A program made the position numbers and the translations under genes. From assembly GCF_009914755.1 (NCBI RefSeq), contig NC_060927.1: a stretch of 64,000 nucleotides of DNA, one strand, 5' to 3'. This DNA is from the human T2T-CHM13v2.0 reference genome, Homo sapiens. Below the pieces are notes generated by a model, which was given only the letters and a program-made list of their open reading frames with translations, was not told where the DNA came from and made no database searches. Shown here in pieces: positions 38,990-51,666 of this stretch. The stretch's first letter is position 1; each line of letters starts with the position of its first letter.

Positions 38990-39143
38990 AAAATAACAAT
39001 AAAGTTAACACAGCTACTAGCACTGGGTGTTTACAATGTGTCAGATAGTATTCTAAGTGCTTTTTGTATATTGATTCATTTAATCCTCACAACAAGCCTG
39101 TCTGGTAGTTACTATTATTACCCCATTTTACAGATTAGGAAGC
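38990..39143 (-). mobile_element. MIR, left half (target of the outer HERV-H; continues at 50188-50255)
   Basis: tttaatcctcacaac...ccccattttacagattaggaagc, continuing as gacaccaggcacaag...tttgccccag...ctgggatt. Confidence 0.75.
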
Positions 39144-39531
39144 TGTCATGCACGTCCACGTGAAGAGACCACCAACAGGCTTTGTGTGAGCAACAAGGCT
39201 GTTTATTTCACCTGGGTGCAGGCAGGCTAAGTCCAAAAAGAGTCAGTGAAGGGAGATAGGGGTGGGGCTGTGTTATAGGATTTGGGTAGGTAGTAGAAAA
39301 TTACAGTCAAAGGGGGTTATTCTCTGGTGGGCAGGGGCGGGGGTCACAAGGTGCTCAGTGGGGGAGCTTCTGAGCCAGGAGAAGGAATTTCACAAGGTAA
39401 TGTCATCAGTAAAGGTGGGAACCAGCCATTTCTACTTCTTTTGTGATTCTTCACTTGCTTCAGGCCATCTGGATGTATACATGCAGGTCACAGGGGATAT
39501 GATGGATTAGCTTGGGCTCAGAGGCCTGACA
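39144..39531 (-). mobile_element. Outer 3' LTR7
   Basis: tgtcatgcacg...gaggcctgaca; PPT (ttcctatcttctt on + strand) immediately adjacent. Confidence 0.93.
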
Positions 39532-40907
39532 TTCCTATCTTCTTGTATTAATAAGAAAAATAACGTAAAATAGTGTTGAAGTGTTGGGGCAGCAAAAATT
39601 TTCGGGGGGTGGTATGGAGAGATAATGGGTGATGTTTCTCAGGGCTGCTTCGAGAGGGATTAGGGTCAGCATGGGAACCTAGAGTGGGAGAGATTAAGCT
39701 GAAGGAATATTTTGTGATAAGGGGTGATATTGTGGGGTTGTTAGAAGAAACATTTGTTGTATAGAATGGTTGGTGATGGCCTGGATACAGTTTTGTATGA
39801 ATTGAGAAACTAAATGCAAGACACAGGGTCTGAATAAGAGAAGGAGAAAAACAGGTATTAAAGGACTAAAAATTGGGAAGACCCAGGACATCCAATTAGA
39901 GAGTGCCCAAGGGAGTTCAGTGCAATTACTTGCTTGATTGGTGAGTTTTTGGGCTCTATTCTTGAGAGAGTCCTCTTTTTTAAGTTGGAGGCTGCCTGTT
40001 TTTAAAAGACCATTAGTCCATTTTACCTTTCCTGAAGATTGAGGACAGTAAGGGGTATGAAGGTTTTACCAAATACCAAGAGCCTGAGAAACTGCTTGGG
40101 TGATTTGACTAATAAAGGCCAGTTCATTTTTGGACTGTACAGAGGTGGGAAGGCCAAACCTAAGAATTTTGTCTTACAGAAGGGAAGAAATGACCATGGT
40201 GGCCTTTTCAGACTCTGTGGGAAAGGCCTCTACCCATCCAGTGAAAGTGTCTACCCAGACTAAGAGGTATTTTAGTTTTCTGACTCAGGGAATGTGAATA
40301 AAGTCAACTTGCCAGTCCTGGGTGGGGGCAAATCCCCAAGCTTGATGTGTAGGGAAGGGAGGGGGCCTGAACAATCCCTGAGCAGTAGTAGAATAGCAGA
40401 TGGAACACTGAGAAGTGATTTCCTTGAGGACAGATTTCCACAATGGAAAGGAAATGAGAGGTTTTAAGAGGCGGGCTAGCGGCTTGTAACCTACATGGAA
40501 GAGGTTATGAAACAATAACAGAATAGAATGGGCCTGTGAGGCTGGAAGGAGATATTTTTCTTAGTCTAAGAACCATTCGCCTTGTGTGGGAAGAGATTGA
40601 TAGGTGGAAGTTTCAGTGGGGGAGTAGGTGGGAGTGACCGATGAGAAGGAGAAAAACTGGCTGTGAGGGACAGAAGTTGGAATGCTAGCTGCTTCTTTAG
40701 CTACCTTATCAGCATAACCATTGCGCTGAGTGATGGGATCTGATGCCTTTTGATGGCCCTTGCAGTGAATGACTCCAGCTTCCTTTGGAAGTAAAGCGGC
40801 CTTGAGAAGAGTTTTTATTAAAGAGGCATTAATGATGGAGGATCCTCGCATAGTGAGGAAACCTCTTTCAGTCCATATAACAGCATGGTGGTGCAGGATA
40901 TGGAAGG

Positions 40908-41320
40908 TGTCAGGCCTCAGAGCCCAAGCTAAGCCATCATATTCCCCGTGACCTGCACATACACATCCAGATGGCCGGTTCCTGCCTTAACTGATGACAT
41001 TCCACCACAAAAGAAGTGAAAATGGCCTGTTCCTGCCTTAACTGATGATATTACCTTGTGAAATTCCTTCTCCTGGCTCATCCTGGCTCAAAAGCTCCCC
41101 TGCTGAGCACCTTGTGACCCCCACCCCTGCCTACCAGAGAACAACCCCCCTTTGACTGTAATTTTCCTTTACCTACCCAAATCTTATAAAACGGCCCCAC
41201 CCCTATCTCCCTTCGCTGACTGTCTTTTCGGACTCAGCCCGCCTGCACCCAGGTGATTAAAAAGCTTTATTGCTCACACAAAGCCTGTTTGGTGGTCTCT
41301 TCACATGGACATGAGTGAAA
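40908..41320 (+). promoter_or_regulatory. Inner 5' LTR7 (promoter with TATA-like ttataaaa; ATTAAA polyA signal)
   Basis: tgtcaggcctc...gagtgaaa. Confidence 0.9.
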
Positions 41321-41323
41321 TTT

Positions 41324-41341
41324 TGGTGCCGTGACTCGGAT
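41324..41341 (+). promoter_or_regulatory. Primer-binding site, tRNA-His
   Basis: TGGTGCCGTGACTCGGAT, the canonical HERV-H PBS. Confidence 0.95.
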
Positions 41342-44300
41342 CGGGGGACCTCCTTTGGGAGATCAATCTCCTGTCCTCCTGCTCTTTGCTCCATGAGAAA
41401 GATCCACCTATGACCTCTGGTCCTCAGACCAACCAGCCCAAGGAACATCTCACCAATTTTAAATTGGGTAAGCGGCCTCTCTTTACTCTCTTCTCCAACC
41501 TCTCTTGCTATCCCTCAACCTCTTTCTCCTTTCAATCTTGGTGCCACACTTCAATCTCTCCTTTATCTTAATTTCAGTTCCTTTCCTTTTCTGGTAGAGA
41601 CCAAGGAGACACGTTTTATCCGTGAACCCAAAACTCTGGCACCGGTAACGGACTCGGGAAGACAGTCTTCCCTTGGTGTTTAATCACGCAGGGACGCCTG
41701 CCTGATTATTCACCCACGTTTCAGAGGTGTCTGACCATGTGGGGACGCCTGCCTTGGTCCTTCACCCTTAGTGGCAAGTACCGCTTTTCTGGGGGGCAAG
41801 AACCCTCTGACCCCTTCTCTCCGTGTCTCTACCCCTTCTCCACTTTCCTGGGGGGCAAGCACCCCCCATCCCTTCTCTTCATGTCTCTACTCTCTCTTTT
41901 CTCTGGACTTGCCTCCTTCACTATGGGCAACCTTCCACCCTCCATTCCTCCCTCTTCTCCCTTAGCCTGTGTTCTCAGAAACTTAAAACCTCTTTAACTC
42001 ACACCTGACCTAAAACCTAAGTGCCTTATTTTCTTCTGCAATGCTGCTTGACCCCAATACAAACTCGACAGTAGTTCCAAATAGCCAGAAAATGGCAGTT
42101 TTGATTTTTCCATGCTACAAGATCTAAATAATTCCTGTCATAAAATGGACAAACAGTCTGAGGTGCCTGATATTCAGGCATTCTTTTACACATGGTTCCC
42201 TCCTTAGTCTCTGTTCCCAATGCAACTCGTCCCAAATCTTCCTTCTTTCCCTCCCGCCTGTCCCCTCAGCCCCAACCACAAGTGTCGCTGAGTCTTTCTT
42301 CTTTTGAATCTTCCTTTTCTACAGACCCGTCTGACCTCTCCCCTCCTCCCCAGGCTGCTCATTGCCAGGCCAAGCTAGGTCTCAATTTTTCCTCAGCCTC
42401 CACTCGCCCACCCTATAGTCCTTTTATCACCTCCCCTCTTCACACTCGGTCCGGCTAACAGTTTCATTCTGTGACTAGCCCTCCCCCAAGCAATTTCCTC
42501 TTAAAAAGGTGGCTGGAGCTAAAGGCATAGTCAAGGTTAATGCTCCTTTTTCTTCATCCCAAATCAGATAGCATTTAGACTCTTTTTCATCAAATATAAA
42601 AAACCAGCCCAGTTCATGGCTCATTTGGCAGCAACCCTGAGATGCTTTACAGCCCTAGACCCTGAAAGGTCAGAAGGCCATCTTATTCTCAATATGCATT
42701 TTACTTTATTACCTAATCTGCTCCCAACATTAAATAAAGCTCCAAAAATTAAATTCCGGCCCTCAAACCCTGCAACAGGACTTAATTAACCTCGCCTTCA
42801 AGGTGTACAATAAAAGAGTAGAGGCAGCCAAGTAGCAACATATTTCTGAGTTGCAATTCCTTGCCCCCACTGTGAGACAAACCCCAGCCACATCTCCAGC
42901 ACACAAGAACTTCCAAACACCTAAACCGCAGTGGCCAGGCATTCCTCCAGGCCTGCCTCTCCCAGGAGCTTGCTACAAGTGCCAGAAATATGGCCACTGG
43001 GTCAAGGAATGCCCACAGCCTGGGATTCCTCCCAAGCCATGTGCCATCTGTGTGGGACCCCACTGGAAATCAGACTGTTCAACTCACCCGGTAGCCACTT
43101 CCAGAGCCCCTAAAACTCTGGCCCAAAGCTCTCTGACTCCATCCCAGATCTTCTTGGTTTAGCGGCTGAAGACTGACACTGCCCAATCACCTCAAAAGCC
43201 CTCTAGACCATAACAGACACCAAGCTTCAGGTAACTCTCACAGTGGAGGGTAAGTCCATCCCCTTTTTAATCAATACAGAGGCTACCCACTCCACATTAC
43301 CTTCTTTTCAAGGGCCTGTTTCCCTTGCCTCCATAACTGTTGTATTGATGGCCAGGCTTCTAAACCTCTTAAAACTCCCCAACTCTGGTGCCAACTTGGA
43401 CAACACTCTTTTATGCACTCTTTTTTAGTTATCCCCACCTGCCCACCTCCCTTATTAGGCCGAGACATTTTAACTAAATGATCTGCTTCCCTAACTATTC
43501 CTAGGCTACAGCCACACCTCGTTGCTGCCTTTTCTCCCAGTTCGAAGCCTCCTTCACATCCTCCTGTTGTATCTCCCCATTTAAACCACAAGTATAGGAC
43601 ACCTCTACTCCCTCCTCGGCAACCGATCATGCACCCCTCACCATCCCATTAAAATCTAATCACCCTTACCCTGCTCAATGCCAATATCCCATCCCACAGC
43701 ATGTTTTAAAAGGATTAAAGTCTGTTATCACTCGCCTGCTACAGCATGGTCTTTTAAAGCCTATAAACTCCCTTTACAGTTCCCCCATTTTGTCTGTCCA
43801 AAAACCGGAAAGCCTTACAGGTTAGTTCAGGATCTGCGCCTTATCAACCAAATTGTTTTTTGCCTATCCACCCCGTGGTGGCACACCCATATACTCTCCT
43901 AACCTCAATGCCTCCCTTCACAACCCATTATTCTGTTCTGGATCTCAAACATGCTTTCTTTACTATTCCTTTGCACCCTTCATCCCAGCCTCTCTGCTTT
44001 CACTTAGACTGACCCTGACACCCATCAGGCTCAGCAAATCACCTGGGCTGTACTGCCGCAAGGCTTCACAGACAGCCCGCATTACTTCAGTCGAGCCCAA
44101 ATTTCTTCCTCAGCTGTTACCTATCTCGGCATAATTCTCATAAAAACACACGTGCTCTCCCTGCTGATCATGTCCAGCTAATCTCCAAAACCCCAATCCC
44201 TTCTACAAAACAACAACTCCTTTCCTTCCTAGGCATGGTTAGTGCAGTCAGAATTCTTACACAAGAGCTGGGACCGTGCCCTATAGCTTTTTTATCCAAA

Positions 44301-44345
44301 TAACTTGACCTTACTGTTTTAGCCTAGCCCTCACGTCAGTGTGCG

Positions 44346-45374
44346 GTGGCTGCCGCCGCCCTAATACTTTTAGAGGCCCTCAAAATCACAAACTATGCTC
44401 AACTCACTCTCTACAGTTCTCATAACTTCCAGAATCTATTTTCTTCCTCCCACCTGACGCATATACTTTCTGCTCCCCGGCTCCTTCAGCTGTACTCACT
44501 CTTTGTTGAGTCTCCCACAGTTACCATTGTTCCTGGCCCAGACTTCAATCCGGCCTCCCACATTATTCCTGATACCACACCTGACCCCCATGATTGTACC
44601 TCTCTGATCCACCTGACATTCACTCCATTTCCCCAAATTTCCTTCTTTCCTGTTCCTCACCCTGATCACACTTGGTTTATTGATGGCAGTTCCACCAGGC
44701 CTAATCACCACACACCAGCAAAGGCAGGCTATGCTATAGTACAAGCCACTAGCCCGCCTCTTAGAACCTCTCATTTCCTTTCCATCGTGGAAATCTATCC
44801 TCAAGGAAATCACTTCTCAGTGTTCCATCTGCTATTCTACTACCCCTCAGAGATTGTTCAGGCCCCCTCCCTTCCCTACACATCAAACTCGGGGATTTGC
44901 CCCACCCAGGACTGGCAAATTGATATTACTCACATGCCCCAAGTCAGAAAACTAAAATACCTCTTAGTCTTGGTAGACACAGGGTCTAAGAAGGCGACCG
45001 TGGTCATTTCTTCCCTTCTGTCAGACATAATTCCTCGGTTTGGCCTTCCCACCTCTATACAGTCTGATAACGGACCAGCCTTTATTAGTCAAATCACCCA
45101 GGCAATTTCTCTAGCTCTTGGTATTCAGCGAACTCATGGTCTTTTAAAAACTCACCTCACCAACCTCAGCCACCAACTTAAAAAGGACTGGACAATACTT
45201 TTACCACTTTCTCTTCTCAGAATTCAGGCCTGTCCTCGGAATGCTACAGGGTACAGCCCATTTGAGCTCCTGTATAGATGCTCCTTTTTATTAGGCCCCA
45301 GTCTCATTCCAGACACCAGACCAACTTGGACTGCACCCCAAAAAAACTTGTCATCCCTACTATCTTCTGTCTAG
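44346..45374 (+). pseudogene. HERV-H pol remnant ORF (connection/RNase H start fused by deletion to integrase pieces)
   Basis: 342 aa from a GTG start; motifs WFIDGSS, QDWQID, IQSDNGPAF and GYSPFELLY, with large internal deletions. Confidence 0.8.
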
Positions 45375-45919
45375 TCATACTCCTATTCACCATTCTCAAC
45401 TACTCATAAATGCCCTGCTCTTGTTTACGCTGCCAGTTTACACTGTTTCTCCAAGCCATCACAGCTGATATCTCTTGGTGCTATCCCCAAACCGTCACTC
45501 CTAACTCCCTCTTAAAGTAAATAAATAATCTTTGCTGGCAGGGCTATGCTGAACCTACTTAGGCACTCTCTAATTGGATGCCCTGAGTCCTCTCAATTCT
45601 TAGTCCTTTAATACCTGTTTTTCTCTTTGTCTCATTCCATTCTTTTTTAATTCATACAAAACCATATCCAGGCCATCACCAATCATTCTATATGACAAAT
45701 GTTTCTTCTAACAACCCCGCAATATCACCCCTTACCACAAAATCTTCCTTCAGCTTAATCTCTCCTACTCTAGGTTCCCAAGCTGCCCCTAATCCCACTC
45801 GAAGCAGCCCTGAGAAACATCGCCCATTCTCTCTCCATACCACCCCCAAAAATTTTCGCCGCCCCAACACTTCAACACTATTTTGCCTTATTTTTCTTAT
45901 TAATATAAGAAGACAGGAA

Positions 45920-46323
45920 TGTCAGGCCTCTGAGCCCAAGCTAAGCCATCATATCCCCTGTGACCTGCATGTACACATCCAGATAGCCAGTTCCTGCCTT
46001 AACTGATGACATTCCACCACAAAAGAAGTTAAAATGGCCTGTTCCTGCCTTAACTGATGACATTACCTTGTGAAATTCCTTCTCCTGGCTCAAAAGCTCC
46101 CCCACTGAGCACCTTGTGAACCCCCGCCCCTGCCCACCAGAGAACAACCCCCTTTTGACTGTAATTTTCCTTCACCTACCCAAATCTTATAAAACGGCCA
46201 CACCCCTATCTCCCTTCGCTGATTCTCTTTTAGGACTCAGCCCGCCTGCACCCAGTTGATTAAAAAGTTTTATTGCTCACACAAAGCCTGTTTGGTGGTC
46301 TCTTCGCACGGACGCGAGTGAAA
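45920..46323 (+). mobile_element. Inner 3' LTR7
   Basis: Preceded by PPT aagaagacaggaa; tgtcaggcctc...gagtgaaa. Confidence 0.93.
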
Positions 46324-49300
46324 GAAGGCATATTTACAGTCAGTATAAATATTGACACGTACTCCTTTTGCAAGAGTGAGGGCCTGAGTTAAGGCAATGA
46401 GTTCGGCTTGCTGAGAGATAGTGGAGCGGGGAAGAGCAATAGCCTCAATAATAGATGTGGAAGATACTATAGCATAGCCTGCCTTTGCTGGTGAGTGGCG
46501 ATTAGGCCTGGTGGAATTGCCATCAATAAACCAAGTGTGATCAGGGTGAGGAACAGAAAAGAAGGAAATATGGGGAAATGGAGTGAATGTCAGGTGGATC
46601 AGAGAGATACAGTCATGGGGGTCAGGTGTGGTATCAGGAATAATGTAGGGGCCAGCCTAAAACAGTAAGGGCAAGTTGTTTGGACAGAAAGAGTACAGGG
46701 CATGGTCCTGGCTGTTGTGTAGGAATTTTGACCACACAGCTCTGTATTTTGGCTGTGTGTAATGAAAAGGGTTGGGATGAGTTAGGGAGAGCTAGTGTGA
46801 GAGTAGCTTTTAGGGCTGTTTTTAAGGAAGGGAAAGAGGAGTGGTGAAAGGATTTAGGATCTATGGGGTCAGCTAGGTTTGCTTTTGTGAGTTCATATAA
46901 TGGTTTAGTCAGGATGGTAAAACTAGGTATCCAAATGTGGAAGTACCTAACCATGCCTAGGAAGGAAAGGAGCTGTTTCGTAGAAGGGGTTGGGGCTTGG
47001 GAGATTAGCCGGACACTATCAGCAGGGAGAGCACGTGTGTTTTCATGAAGAATTATACCGAGATAGGTAAGGGATGAGGAAGAAATTTGGGCTTGATTGA
47101 AGTAATGGGGGCTGTCCATGAAGCCTTGCGGCAGTACAGCCCAGGTAATTTGCTGAGCCTGATGGGTGTCAGGGTCAGTCTAAGTGAAAGCGAAGAGAGG
47201 CTGGGATGAAGGGTGCAAAGGAATAGTAAAGAAAGCATGTTTGAGATCCAGAACAGAATAATGGGTTGTGGAGGGATTGTGGAGGGAGGTATTGAGGATA
47301 GGAGAGTATGTGGGTTTGGCACCACGGGGTGGATAGATAAAACAATTTGGTTGATAAAGTGTGGATCCTGAACTAACTTGTAAGACTTGTCTGGTTTTTG
47401 GACAGGTAAAATAGGAAATGGTAAGGAGAGTTTATAGGCTTTAAAAGGCCATGCTGTAACAGGTGAGTGATAATGAGTTTTAATCCTTGTAAAGTGTGCT
47501 GTGGGATGGGATATTGGTGTTGAGCAGGGTAAGGGTGATTAGGTTTTAATGGGATAGTAATGGGCGTGTGATTGGTTGCCACGGAGGGAGTAGAGGGGTC
47601 CCATACTTGTGGGTTAAGGTGGGGGGGATATGAGAGGAGGATGCAAAGGAGGCTTTGAACTAGGGAAAAGGGCGGCAATGAGGTGTGGCTATAGCCTAGG
47701 AATAGTCAGGGAAGCAGATAATTTAGTTAAAGTGTCTCAACCTAATAAGGGAGCTGGGCAGGTGGGGATAACTAAAAAGGAGTGCATAAAAGAATGTTGT
47801 CCAAGTTGGCATCAGAGTTGGGGAGTTTTAAGAGGTTTAGAAGCCTGGCCATCAATACCCACAACAGTTATGGAGGCAAAGGAAACATGCCCTTGAAAAG
47901 AAAGTAATGTGGAGTGGGTAGCCTCCATATTTTAATTAAGAAGGGGACGGACTTACCCTCCACTATAAGAGTTATCCAAAGTATCTGTGATGGTCCACGA
48001 GGCTTCTGAGGTGATTGGGCAGCATCAGTCTTTAGCCACTAAGCCAAGGAGATCTGGGAAGGAGTCAGTCAGAGGGCCTTGGGCCAGGGTTCCAGGGGCT
48101 CTGGGAGTGGCTGCCGGGTGAGTTGGCCAGTCTGATTTCCAGTGGGGTCCCACACAGATGGCACATGGCTTGGGAGGAATCCTGGGCTGTGGGCATTCCT
48201 TGGCCCAGTGGCCAGATTTCTGGCACTTGAAGCAAGATCCTGATGGAGGAGGTCCTGTAGGAATGCTTGACCACTGTGGCTTAGGCATTTTGAAGTTTTT
48301 GTGTGCTGGAGATGTGGCTGGGTTTTGTCTCACAACAGAGTCAAGTAATTGTAACTCTTCTCTATTATTGTACACCTTGAAGGCGAGGTGAATTAAGTCC
48401 TGTTGTGGGGTTTGAGGGCCAGGATCTAATTTTTTGAGCTTTTTTTAAATGTCGGGAGCTGATTGGGTAATAAAATGCACATTGAGAATAAGACGGCCTT
48501 CTGACCTTTCAGGGCCTAGGGCTGTAAAGTGTCTCAGGGTTGCTGCCAAATGAGCCATGAACTGGGCTGGGTTTTTATATTTGATGAAAAAGAGCCTAAA
48601 CGCTAACTGATTTGGGAGAGGTCAGATAAAGAAAAAGGAGCATTAACCTTGACTATGCCTACAGCTCCAGCCATCTCTTTAAGAGGAAATTATTGGGCAG
48701 GTGGGGGAGGGCTAGTTTCGGAATGAAACTGTAAGCTGGACCAGGTGTGAGCAGGGGAGGGGACAGAAGGATTATAGGGTATGGGAGTGGAGGCTGAGGA
48801 AGAATTGGGACCTGGCTCGGCCTGGCGAGGAACAGCCTGGGGAGGAGGGGAGAGGTCAGATGGGTCTGTAGAAAAGGAGGATTCAAAGGACTCAGAGCTT
48901 GGGATGCAGACTTAAGGAACAGACAGGAGAGAAAGAAGAAGGATATCGGGTGAGTCGCATTAGGAGCAGAGACTAGGGAGGGACCAATGTGTAAAAGAAT
49001 GCCTGGACGTCGAGCACCTCAGACCCATTCGCCCATTTTTTGACAAAATTCATCCAGGTCTTGTAAAATGGAGAAATCAAAAGTGCTATTTTCTGGCAAT
49101 TTAGAACCATTATCGAGTTTGTATTGGGGCCCAAGCGGTGTTGCAGAAGAAAATAAGATGCTTAGGTTTTAGGTCAGGTGAGAGTTGAAGAGGTTTTAAG
49201 TTTCTGAGAACACAGGCTAAGGGAGAAGAAGGGGGAATGGAGGGTGGAAGGTTGCCCATAGTGAAGGAGGCAAGCCCAGAGAAAAGAGAGGGTAGAGACA

Positions 49301-49777
49301 CGGAGAAGGGGGTGGTGAGCAGCCCTGGGCTGCAGTGTGGGTGAGCAGCCAAAGCAGGCAACCCCGCAATTGACTTGCCACCAAGGGAATGTGGGTGAAT
49401 GACCAAGGAGGTGTCCCCGTGGTGATCAGACACCAGTGAAATGTGGGTGAATAATCAGGCAGGCGTCCCCGCAGGGATTAAACACCAAGGGAAGACTGTC
49501 TTCCCGAGTCCATGACCAGCGCCGGAGTTTTGGGTCCACGGATAAAATGTGTCTCCTTTGTCTCTACTAGAGAGGAAAAAGAACTGGAATTGGAAGGACA
49601 GGGAGATTGAAGGGTAGCGAGAGAGGCTGGAGAAGAGAGTGAAAAGACCACTTACCTGATTTGAAATTGGTGAGATGTTCCTTGGGTTGTTTGGTCTGAC
49701 GACCCCAGTTCACAGGTGGATCTCCTCATGGAGTGAGGGTGAGGACAGGGGACCGGTCTCCCGAAGGAGTCCTCCTG

Positions 49778-49795
49778 TCCTGGGTTTCGGCACCA
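49778..49795 (-). promoter_or_regulatory. Primer-binding site, tRNA-Phe type
   Basis: Minus strand TGGTGCCGAAACCCAGGA: 17/18 to the Phe PBS TGGTGCCGAAACCCGGGA, 12/18 to the His PBS. Confidence 0.88.
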
Positions 49796-49797
49796 AA

Positions 49798-50187
49798 TGT
49801 CACACGCGTCTGTGTGAAGAGACCACCAACAGGCTTTGTGTGAGCAACAAGGCTGTTTATTTCACCTGGGTGCAGGCAGGCTGAGTCCGAAAAGAGAGTC
49901 AGCAAAGGGAGATAGGGTGGGGCCGTTTTATAAGATTTGGGTAGGTAAAGGAAAATTACAGTCAAAAGGGGGTTGTTCTCTGGCGGGCAGGGGCGGGGGT
50001 CACAAGGTGCTCAGTGGAGGAGTAGCTGAGCCAGGAGAAGGAATTTCACAAGGTAATGTCATCAGTTAAGTCAGGAACCAGCCATTTCCACTTCTTTTGT
50101 GATTCTTCACTTGCTTCAGGCCATCTGGATATATATGTGCAGGTCACAGGGGATATGATGGCTTAGCTTGAGCTCAGAGGCCTGACA
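49798..50187 (-). promoter_or_regulatory. Outer 5' LTR7
   Basis: tgtcacacgcg...gaggcctgaca, adjacent to the PBS. Confidence 0.92.
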
Positions 50188-51616
50188 GACACCAGGCACA
50201 AGAATGTAAAATCATTTGCCCCAGATTGTATAGCTAGAAAATGCAGAACTGGGATTGTTGCCTTTCTCTACCCCACTGTCACTGAAGATAAAACATACTG
50301 CACTTCAATTTGCAGAGATATGATCAAATATCCCTCAGAAGATTCTGATGTCTAAATGAAAATAGGAGTTTCTGGGCCAATAAAGCTGAGGGCCACACTT
50401 TGGACCCTGGAAGGCCACCCTGAGTGGTCTGCTTACCTCTCTCCTGTATGTCTCTATTTTATTCTCTCTCTAACTCAACACTGTCTTTGTTATCTTTATT
50501 GCATAATATCTGAACCGTGCTTCCATGCCAAGGCTCTGTCAAGTTATAATCTAGATTGAGTTTTCTTAGTCTGGTTGTATAAACTCTGGAAAGCAGAACA
50601 AAATTTTCCTCTCTCTTTTTCTCATCAGCTAGCTCCTTAGATGAAAAATAAATTTCAGTATTACACACCTAGGAGATCCTCAATAAACAGTTCTGAGCTA
50701 TAGGAAAATTCTTTTTGGCACCATTCCCAAAATTAACAGCAACAAAAATTAATTTTATATATGAACGGTACAAATGGACATTGTAGAATGCATTAGGAGG
50801 CTTAAGAGAGCAGAGAGAACATTCTGTGAACTGCTCCCCAACCCCAGGATAAGACTGTGCATTGTTCTGGGAAAAGGGTCTTTAGCAATTAAATAGTTAA
50901 ACCTCCAGTGAAAGCAGGCCACAGCTGGAGAGAGTGTTTATAGTGCAAGGCAGGAAGTATGGAGTCAATGACTTCTGCTGGCAGGAAGGGGTGGAGGGGA
51001 AGGGGGAGGGAAAGAAAAGCAGGATGCCGGGAAGGAGGATTCTTAGTTGTTCTCAGCCTGGAAGACGTTCTCTCTCAATTTGAAGCCAGATATTGGCCAG
51101 AAAACTCCCATTGCTACAGAAAGGATGAAAAAGGTGCTGAGTGCAGACAGAGTGAAGCCAAAGTTGGGAGATGCAGGCGTTGTGCCCAGAATACAGTTGG
51201 AACTTCCAGCATTTGAATGGAGCAACACAAAAGTAGGAATTGAGATGCTTAGACATCCAGAAATACAGTTGAGAAAGCTTTCTTAAATAATAATGATATT
51301 TATTTAGCAATTTTACATGCCAAGAGCTGCACTAAATGTTTTATATTCATTATCCCATTTAATTTTCAAGAATCCAATGAGAAAACTCTCTGTTTTAGAA
51401 ACTATTCCTCACTTTACAAATGAGCAAACTTGAGGCTTTACAAAGTTAAATAGGTTTCCCAAAGTATAAATTCAAATAGTTTGCTCCTATCAAAATACAA
51501 ATTTCAAAAAGTTAAAACATGATTTTCATACAAATATATAGTCTAAGACTTACCTACTTCATTTGTGACAAAACCAGCTGGTTTAAAGAGGAGGATAGAA
51601 GATTGCTGATAAGTGC

Positions 51617-51625
51617 GTGTGTGTA

Positions 51626-51666
<41 letters not shown>
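51617..51666. repeat. (TG)n microsatellite
   Basis: Read directly from the sequence. Confidence 0.95.

What the first reader, a model, noticed from the sequence alone, without database searches (positions are those of the whole stretch)
39144..50187. HERV-H nested head-to-head inside another HERV-H
Seen: a complete plus-strand provirus (40908-46323, perfect GAAGG TSD) interrupts a minus-strand provirus. Removing it restores the RNase H reading RVNIYTDCKYAF-HILHHHAVIWTERGFLTMRGSSIINAS, so the hit lies just after the conserved YTD motif. LTR order is <- -> -> <-. Hand counts give ~25 substitutions between the inner LTRs and ~32 between the outer LTRs (each ~400 bp), consistent with the nesting order. 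Inference: same-family nesting may reflect integration into chromatin opened by an active LTR7 in embryonic or germline cells.
Basis: partly seen in the sequence, partly recalled or inferred. Interest (0 to 1): 0.7.

Follow-up and report, generated by a model that had tools for sequence, protein, structure and literature searches.

The report
HERV-H nested in older HERV-H
A fossil retrovirus (HERV-H) sits in reverse orientation inside another broken copy of its own family near the human GNB4 gene; the nesting is real, both copies are already catalogued, and it is likely an ordinary chance landing, though a partial survey hints at a modest excess of such nests.

Summary
A two-LTR plus-strand HERV-H (40908-46323) with an exact GAAGG duplication interrupts the RNase H part of a minus-strand HERV-H (39144-50187). 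In 29 of 29 other copies the two flanks abut with exactly 5 bases of overlap. LTR differences are 25/403 (inner) and 32/387 (outer); the direction fits but is not significant (p 0.27).

Carter 2022 lists both in hg38: inner LTR7d1, outer LTR7bc, an older wave. Neither is the ESC-active LTR7up, and the inner has no ESC activity marks. No gene conversion was found.

One such nest is expected by chance (0.9-1.4 genome-wide). In 694 of 1537 proviral rows I found two further antisense nests (chr2 with a 5-bp duplication; chr9, one junction only) against 0.4-0.8 expected. That excess is not significant without the index case and fits the published roughly 4-fold TE-into-TE bias. The 'LTR7-opened chromatin' idea is untested, not excluded. 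Ordinary nested provirus, low interest.

The parts
39139..39143 (.). Left flank of the outer provirus (GAAGC); imperfect target-site duplication
   Evidence: 3 of 5 bases match 50188-50192
39144..39531 (-). Outer HERV-H 3' LTR (LTR7bc), 388 bp
   Evidence: subfamily from Carter 2022 supp. 2
39532..40902 (-). Outer internal region, 3' part: second half of RNase H, integrase and env remnants, polypurine tract
   Evidence: Pfam RNase_H 81-140, below cut-off; env/integrase labels by similarity to the inner element and recall
40903..40907 (+). Target-site duplication GAAGG, left copy
40908..41320 (+). Inner HERV-H 5' LTR (LTR7d1), 413 bp, followed by the common HERV-H primer-binding site
   Evidence: 685 genomic matches of the primer-site motif at up to 2 mismatches, 7 for the control
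41321..45919 (+). Inner internal region: gag zinc knuckle, broken pol lacking the RNase H stretch around the host break, integrase-core remnant, env remnant
   Evidence: (zf-CCHC, rve)
45920..46323 (+). Inner 3' LTR, 404 bp
46324..46328 (+). Target-site duplication GAAGG, right copy
46329..49797 (-). Outer internal region, 5' part: leader with a rare primer-binding-site type and splice donor, gag, pro, RT, first half of RNase H; many stops
   Evidence: 32 genomic matches of this LTR-end/primer-site motif, 0 control
49656..49809 (-). Alternative GNB4 exon (RefSeq table in the task) from an AG acceptor in U5 of the outer 5' LTR to the HERV-H leader donor
   Evidence: annotation given in the task; splice signals
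49798..50187 (-). Outer 5' LTR (LTR7bc), 390 bp
50188..50192 (.). Right flank of the outer provirus (GACAC)

Best explanation
An LTR7d1-type HERV-H with a 5-bp target-site duplication sits antisense inside the RNase H region of an LTR7bc-type HERV-H, likely placed there by an ordinary retroviral integration into an older, already resident copy that it likely hit by chance rather than by targeting its own family. Shown: the anatomy, the duplication, contiguous flanks in other copies, two different LTR subfamilies and primer-site types, the same arrangement in hg38, and no conversion between the inverted arms. Inferred: (1) the outer copy entered first (old wave, 25-40 My in Carter 2022) and the inner one later (9-20 My wave); (2) the inner copy, whose RNase H deletion is shared by 22 of 29 of its nearest relatives, was likely mobilised with enzymes supplied in trans; (3) the insertion survived because it hit already dispensable repeat DNA, the general bias that puts young elements into old ones; (4) antisense nests are the ones that remain visible, since same-strand nests are harder to annotate and can be lost by recombination. 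The nest itself likely does nothing. The only host link is an alternative GNB4 exon taken from the outer 5' LTR and leader, which skips the nest.
For: TSD and flank contiguity 29/29. Subfamily labels and ages. Inner-outer identity 87.5% over 3543 columns. Shared rare variants at 1 of 1696 columns against 46 and 55 private ones. Uniform-chance expectation 0.85 full-in-full and 1.4 provirus-in-provirus at 3.1 Gb, P(at least one) 0.57-0.76. Levy 2010 reports a 4-fold higher tendency of young TEs to sit in existing TEs (abstract passage); applied here it gives 1.6-3.4 expected antisense nests in the rows read, matching the 2-4 seen. Inner element: 0 for RNA, GRO-seq, chimeric transcript, NANOG, OCT4, KLF4, SOX2, H3K4me3 and H3K27ac in ESC; ZNF534 is the only positive call.
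Against: The partial survey found 3 antisense nests (index, chr2, chr9) plus 1 unresolved (chrY) against 0.41-0.84 expected; P(>=3) 0.008-0.054 with the index case, P(>=2) 0.06-0.21 without. All three hosts carry a 7bc label. The chr3 and chr9 break points lie 65 bases apart in the same RNase H stretch (chance about 0.08). Both chr9 elements carry the rare primer-site type. Host sizes and exposures in the null are rough assumptions, and 843 proviral rows were not read.
Confidence: 0.7

Rival explanations
1. One reading: the host LTR7bc was transcribed in the early embryo, opened its own chromatin, and so drew in a later HERV-H.
For: 7bc is expressed across the blastocyst while 7o is not. All three nests have 7bc-labelled hosts. 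The count is 2-7 fold above a uniform null.
Against: The host labels are ambiguous (the chr2 host is also listed as 7d1, the chr9 host partly as 7o). Robust ESC promoter activity is confined to 7up; 8.7% of 7bc loci bind NANOG. RNase H-retaining copies are less transcribed. The hit is about 3.5 kb inside the body, not at the LTR. No nest was seen among the 111 7up1 rows read (the one long-span row holds a non-HERV-H insert), though young hosts had little exposure.
Confidence: 0.11
2. Regional preference set by the host: a nearby enhancer and an alternative GNB4 start kept the region open in the germ line or embryo, and both proviruses landed there for that reason.
For: RefSeq enhancer at 50662-51212 and first exons at 51554-51637 lie 0.5-1.4 kb from the outer 5' LTR (annotation in the task). 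Preference of gammaretroviral integrases for enhancers is recalled, not tested.
Against: No other HERV-H piece lies in the 64-kb window. The inner element shows no active marks in ESC. The enhancer's age and cell type are unknown.
Confidence: 0.1
3. Family-specific targeting: HERV-H integration complexes prefer HERV-H DNA, with a hotspot in the RNase H region.
For: Two of three break points lie 65 bases apart in RNase H. The chr2 insert ends at an internal CA with a clean 5-bp duplication, an unusual integration. Levy 2010 reports position hotspots within target TEs.
Against: Only three events. The clustering has p about 0.08 and was noticed after the fact. The chr2 site is elsewhere in pol. 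The chr9 far junction is deleted, so its duplication cannot be checked. No mechanism is known to me.
Confidence: 0.07
4. Not an integration: an inversion, inverted duplication or misassembly of one provirus.
For: Inverted pieces of single HERV-H copies do occur (chr4 locus L028).
Against: Four full LTRs in two subfamily pairs (within pairs 92-94% identical, across pairs 88-90%), two different primer-site types, an exact 5-bp duplication, the inner element lacking sequence that the outer has, and the same rows in hg38.
Confidence: 0.02

Closest known systems
HERV-H proviruses with LTR7d1 (inner) and LTR7bc (outer) LTRs, Carter et al. 2022 (PMC8912925)
   Same: Both elements are rows of supplementary file 2: chr3:179517070-179522481 + full 7d1; chr3:179515306-179525958 minus-strand truncated 7bc, plus a 'solo' 7bc at 179525960-179526347 that is in fact the outer 5' LTR.
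   Different: The table splits the outer element and does not mark the nest; the Results parts I read (1-3 of 4) do not mention nesting.
[quoted passage not shown] 2010 (PMC2836564)
   Same: Exact insertions of young TEs into old ones, a 4-fold bias toward existing TEs, position hotspots, and same-family LTR nests such as MaLR in MaLR (3207) and ERVL in ERVL (passages).
   Different: The passages seen give no HERV-H-in-HERV-H count; same-type sense nests and internal-within-LTR cases were excluded there.
RTVL-H2-like versus RGH2-like HERV-H groups (as summarised in Gemmell 2019, PMC6629862)
   Same: The inner element has a pol deletion shared with 22 of 29 close relatives, as the younger deleted group does; the outer keeps that RNase H stretch.
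   Different: The outer element is only about 5.6 kb without the insert, so it is not an intact-pol copy either; I did not map its deletions on the published P1-P8 scheme.
ESC-active LTR7up HERV-H loci
   Same: Same family.
   Different: Neither element is 7up, each LTR has a single AAAAGAAG, and the inner one has no ESC activity calls.

Membership tests
Nested retroviral integration | Inner element bounded by two LTRs in direct orientation | tested here: met
Nested retroviral integration | Short target-site duplication flanking the inner element | tested here: met
   GAAGG on both sides; 5-base overlap of flanks in 29 of 29 other copies
Nested retroviral integration | Inner element younger than host by LTR divergence | tested here: inconclusive
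   K2P 0.065 +/- 0.013 vs 0.089 +/- 0.016, Fisher p 0.27; subfamily ages agree with the order
Nested retroviral integration | Host-only allele in an outgroup species | not testable with these tools
   no primate genomes held
HERV-H (inner) | LTR7-family LTRs | tested here: met
   2898 first-look candidates, 39 other LTR copies at 90-93%; 7d1 row in Carter supp. 2
HERV-H (inner) | tRNA-His primer-binding site | tested here: inconclusive
   motif is the common HERV-H one (685 matches); its assignment to tRNA-His is recalled, not checked against a tRNA gene
HERV-H (outer) | LTR7-family LTRs and HERV-H internal sequence | tested here: met
   7bc rows; 87.5% identity to the inner element over 3543 columns
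HERV-H (outer) | tRNA-His primer-binding site | tested here: inconclusive
   it carries a different, rare motif (32 matches) that I recall as tRNA-Phe-like and as a described minority type of HERV-H; the one paper search for this found nothing. Filing as HERV-H rests on LTR and internal sequence
HERV-H (outer) | Own 5-bp target-site duplication | tested here: inconclusive
   3 of 5 bases match
LTR7up (ESC-active) | Assignment to the 7up clade and ESC transcription | tested here: not met
   labels 7d1 and 7bc; inner RNA/GRO
Gene-converting inverted repeat | Tracts of shared rare variants between the arms | tested here: not met
   1 of 1696 columns; the 98.8% RT patch is equalled by 7 of 49 paralogs covering it
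Family-specific (homotypic) targeting | Excess over matched TE-in-TE background, genome-wide | tested here: inconclusive
   694 of 1537 rows read; 2-4 events vs 0.4-0.8 uniform or 1.6-3.4 with a 4-fold bias

The most novel reading that the evidence does not exclude
HERV-H re-integrated into older copies of its own family more often than into other repeats, favouring embryo-expressed LTR7bc hosts and a short RNase H stretch, so nested copies record which proviruses were open in ancestral primate embryos; at this locus the inverted pair would also fold into a multi-kilobase duplex inside the long GNB4 pre-mRNA.
Probability: 0.12. Interest if true: 0.55.

Novelty: new member of a known kind. Interest (0 to 1): 0.16.

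Why it matters
As it stands the locus is a tidy internal check on HERV-H chronology: a 7d1 copy inside a 7bc copy fixes their order independently of LTR clocks and agrees with the published waves. It also shows how automatic annotation splits a host into a 'truncated' and a 'solo' row. It would matter more only if a full count showed self-targeting beyond the general TE-into-TE bias. That would give a fossil read-out of integration preference and of embryonic chromatin 10-25 million years ago. A smaller, testable point is the LTR-derived GNB4 exon and the long inverted repeat in that isoform's intron.

Tried and rejected
Gene conversion between the inverted arms: prompted by 96-99% patches and a 77-base identical run; rejected on shared-variant counts. 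One figure pointed the other way: the outer element had the longest identical run to the inner (121 against 98 for the next copy), but that routine did not count insertions in the partner as breaks, and the global alignment gave 77.

Dating by LTR divergence: inner 15-33 My and outer 20-45 My over assumed rates of 2.2e-9 to 1.0e-9, with overlapping intervals; not discriminating.

Candidate nests dropped: chr10 hg38 53.49 Mb holds a roughly 6-kb non-HERV-H insert; chr4 L028 is one provirus with an inverted 3' end; chr5 8.998 Mb, chr5 44.11 Mb, chr16 10.28 Mb, chrY 17.13 Mb, chr2 208.89 Mb, chr5 43.32 Mb, chr19 23.18 Mb, chr1 221.95 Mb and chr11 118.72 Mb show no inner HERV-H row for the coordinate prefixes queried (one edge prefix was not queried for the last three); chr6 152.49 Mb is overlapping same-strand annotation. 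Unresolved: chrY 20.9 Mb (no duplication) and chr3 90.07 Mb (rows only). Not checked: chr4 35.02, chr7 75.78, chr19 9.54 and chrX 116.01 Mb, and six long-span rows (chr3 130.14, chr4 9.09, chr7 6.95, chr8 8.17, chr8 12.48, chr11 3.47 Mb) that I recall as one duplicated family with another ERV inside. A first guess at the chrY position missed.

The outer element's flanks look like an interrupted MIR from recall; searches did not confirm it.

Literature: no paper with HERVH or HERV-H plus GNB4; none for nested + HERV-H + 'inserted into another' + provirus; listings showed nothing on this locus; PMC6298018 and PMC12228294 had no relevant passage for the terms used.

Full report
1. Observation. 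The region 39144-50187 holds four LTRs in the order minus, plus, plus, minus. The inner pair (40908-41320, 45920-46323) differs at 25 of 403 aligned columns (K2P 0.065 +/- 0.013). The outer pair (39144-39531, 49798-50187) differs at 32 of 387 (0.089 +/- 0.016). Cross comparisons differ at 39-47 columns with 6-7 indels. GAAGG flanks the inner element on both sides. I searched the genome with the left flank (400 candidates, 40 scored, 30 loci fetched) and aligned the left and right flanks separately. In 29 of the 29 other copies they abut with an overlap of exactly 5 bases, so the inner element is a clean insertion with a 5-bp duplication. The break lies in RNase H: of six stop-free stretches chosen from the 36, the one right of the insertion matches Pfam RNase_H 4-72 and the one left of it 81-140 (the latter below the curated cut-off). 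Both proviruses are coding-dead, with 12-34 stops per frame in the pol stretches counted. The outer element's own flanks agree at 3 of 5 bases.

2. Identity. Using a recalled hg38 position of GNB4 I looked the locus up in Carter et al. 2022 (PMC8912925; seen: outline, Results parts 1-3 of 4, file list, supplementary file 7, parts 1, 7, 9, 12, 14 and 22 of file 2, and searches in files 1 and 2). File 2 lists a full plus-strand LTR7d1 element at chr3:179517070-179522481, inside a minus-strand LTR7bc element at 179515306-179525958 with a 7bc 'solo' LTR directly after it. Spans (5412 and 11042) and strands match the window (5416 and 11044), which confirms the look-up and makes a T2T misassembly very unlikely. 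The paper places 7bc in the oldest wave (25-40 My) and 7d1 in the middle wave (9-20 My), in agreement with the nesting order. File 1 gives the inner element zero for RNA, GRO-seq, chimeric transcript, pluripotency factors and active marks in ESC, with ZNF534 the only positive; the outer element had no row under the prefixes searched. The two elements also differ in primer-binding-site type (685 versus 32 genomic matches) and in pol content: the inner lacks the RNase H stretch into which it inserted, as do 22 of its 29 nearest relatives.

3. Interaction between the two copies. They form an inverted repeat, 87.5% identical over 3543 columns. Patches of 96-99% suggested gene conversion. Against 58 paralog loci, inner and outer share a rare base at 1 of 1696 usable columns while carrying 46 and 55 private ones, and the 98.8% patch in RT is equalled by 7 of the 49 paralogs that cover it. 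I find no conversion. The RefSeq table in the task shows an alternative GNB4 exon at 49656-49809; it runs from an AG found only in the outer 5' LTR to the leader donor and skips the nest. The pre-mRNA of that isoform would contain both arms and is predicted to pair; there are no expression data here.

4. Is same-family nesting more than chance? With the paper's counts (964 full, 362 truncated, 1535 solo) and uniform insertion, 0.85 full-in-full and 1.4 provirus-in-provirus nests are expected at 3.1 Gb, up to 1.8 and 2.9 if only 1.5 Gb is available. One case needs no special cause. I then read 694 of the 1537 full or truncated rows, flagged by eye those whose span exceeds their HERV-H length by about 3 kb or more, and followed them up by row search or sequence. 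Two more antisense nests appeared. The chr2 case has an exact 5-bp duplication. The chr9 case has one clean junction and a deleted far end; both of its elements share a rare primer-site type though their LTRs differ. A chrY case lacks a duplication and is unresolved. Rejected and unchecked rows are listed under Tried and rejected; same-strand nests would be largely missed. Separately, 2 of 58 paralog loci held HERV-H on both strands: one was the chr2 nest, one an inversion. The rough expectation for the rows read is 0.41-0.84 antisense nests. P(>=3) is 0.008-0.054 counting the index case, which was selected for being a nest; P(>=2) is 0.06-0.21 without it. Levy et al. 2010 (PMC2836564; abstract and passages seen) report a 4-fold bias of young TEs toward existing TEs, which lifts the expectation to 1.6-3.4. 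The modest excess is thus within a known general effect, but a family-specific part is not excluded: all three hosts carry a 7bc label, 7bc is expressed in the blastocyst, and two break points are 65 bases apart (p about 0.08, post hoc).

5. Mechanism. Most likely (0.7): ordinary integrase-mediated insertion of a pol-deleted 7d1 copy, likely complemented in trans, into a resident 7bc copy, retained because the target was dispensable. The anatomy is shown; the order is strongly inferred; the absence of targeting is inferred from a rough null. It also competes with a host enhancer and start site 0.5-1.4 kb away (0.10). Family-specific targeting gets 0.07, rearrangement or misassembly 0.02.

6. 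Novelty. Nested LTR elements, including same-family nests, are a known kind, and both copies are in a published table. I found no text describing this nest or linking HERV-H to GNB4 in ten searches of the open library (listings only unless stated), nor in passages of PMC6298018 or PMC12228294 (no hits). Subscription papers and unseen supplements may hold it. Verdict: real, new member of a known kind, interest 0.16; the self-targeting reading has probability about 0.12 and is directly testable with a full RepeatMasker count.

Noticed in passing
L061:5467-10000 and L062:1-3748 (G000:C2:34701466-34709747): A second antisense HERV-H-in-HERV-H nest with an exact 5-bp duplication (CTGTT). The inner copy has only its 5' LTR; its other end stops at a CA inside the polypurine tract, which looks like integration at a cryptic end. 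Inner and outer pol are 90% identical, so they are not one molecule.
   Followed up: partly
L071:611 and L072:584-591 (G000:C9:98031410-98035418): A plus-strand 7u2-labelled HERV-H starts cleanly inside the RNase H region of a minus-strand copy, 65 bases from the position equivalent to the chr3 site; the far junction is deleted. Both carry the rare primer-site type, yet their LTRs differ by about 10% and a roughly 44-base indel.
   Followed up: partly
L069:9154-10000 and L070:1-1242 (G000:C24, about 21.778-21.780 Mb): A 2.1-kb two-LTR minus-strand HERV-H piece between parts of a plus-strand copy, with about 2.2 kb of other DNA on one side and no target-site duplication; unexplained.
   Followed up: partly
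window 49656-49809 (-): The alternative GNB4 exon uses an AG acceptor present only in the outer 5' LTR (the other three LTRs have GG there) and the HERV-H leader donor GTAAG; it is 154 bases with one ATG. Whether these transcripts are curated or predicted is not given.
   Followed up: partly
window 40908-46323 against 39153-40488 and 46465-50187: 4766 of 5416 inner bases have an inverted partner in the outer element; three sampled arm pairs give duplex energies of -361 to -510 kcal/mol against -86 to -156 for shuffles. A read-through RNA would form a long hairpin; no expression data were seen.
   Followed up: partly
window 49778-49797: The outer element has a rare primer-binding-site type (32 genomic matches) unlike the inner one (685 matches); recalled as Phe-like versus His.
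   Followed up: partly
L067/L028/L068 (G000:C4:91673354-91680165): A single HERV-H whose 3' end (env remnant and LTR) is inverted relative to the rest.
   Followed up: partly
window 39060-39143 and 50188-50300: Flanks of the outer provirus resemble the two halves of a MIR element (recalled; not confirmed).
   Followed up: partly
window 51614-51666: A (TG)n microsatellite overlaps the annotated start of the long GNB4 transcripts (51633-51637).
   Followed up: no
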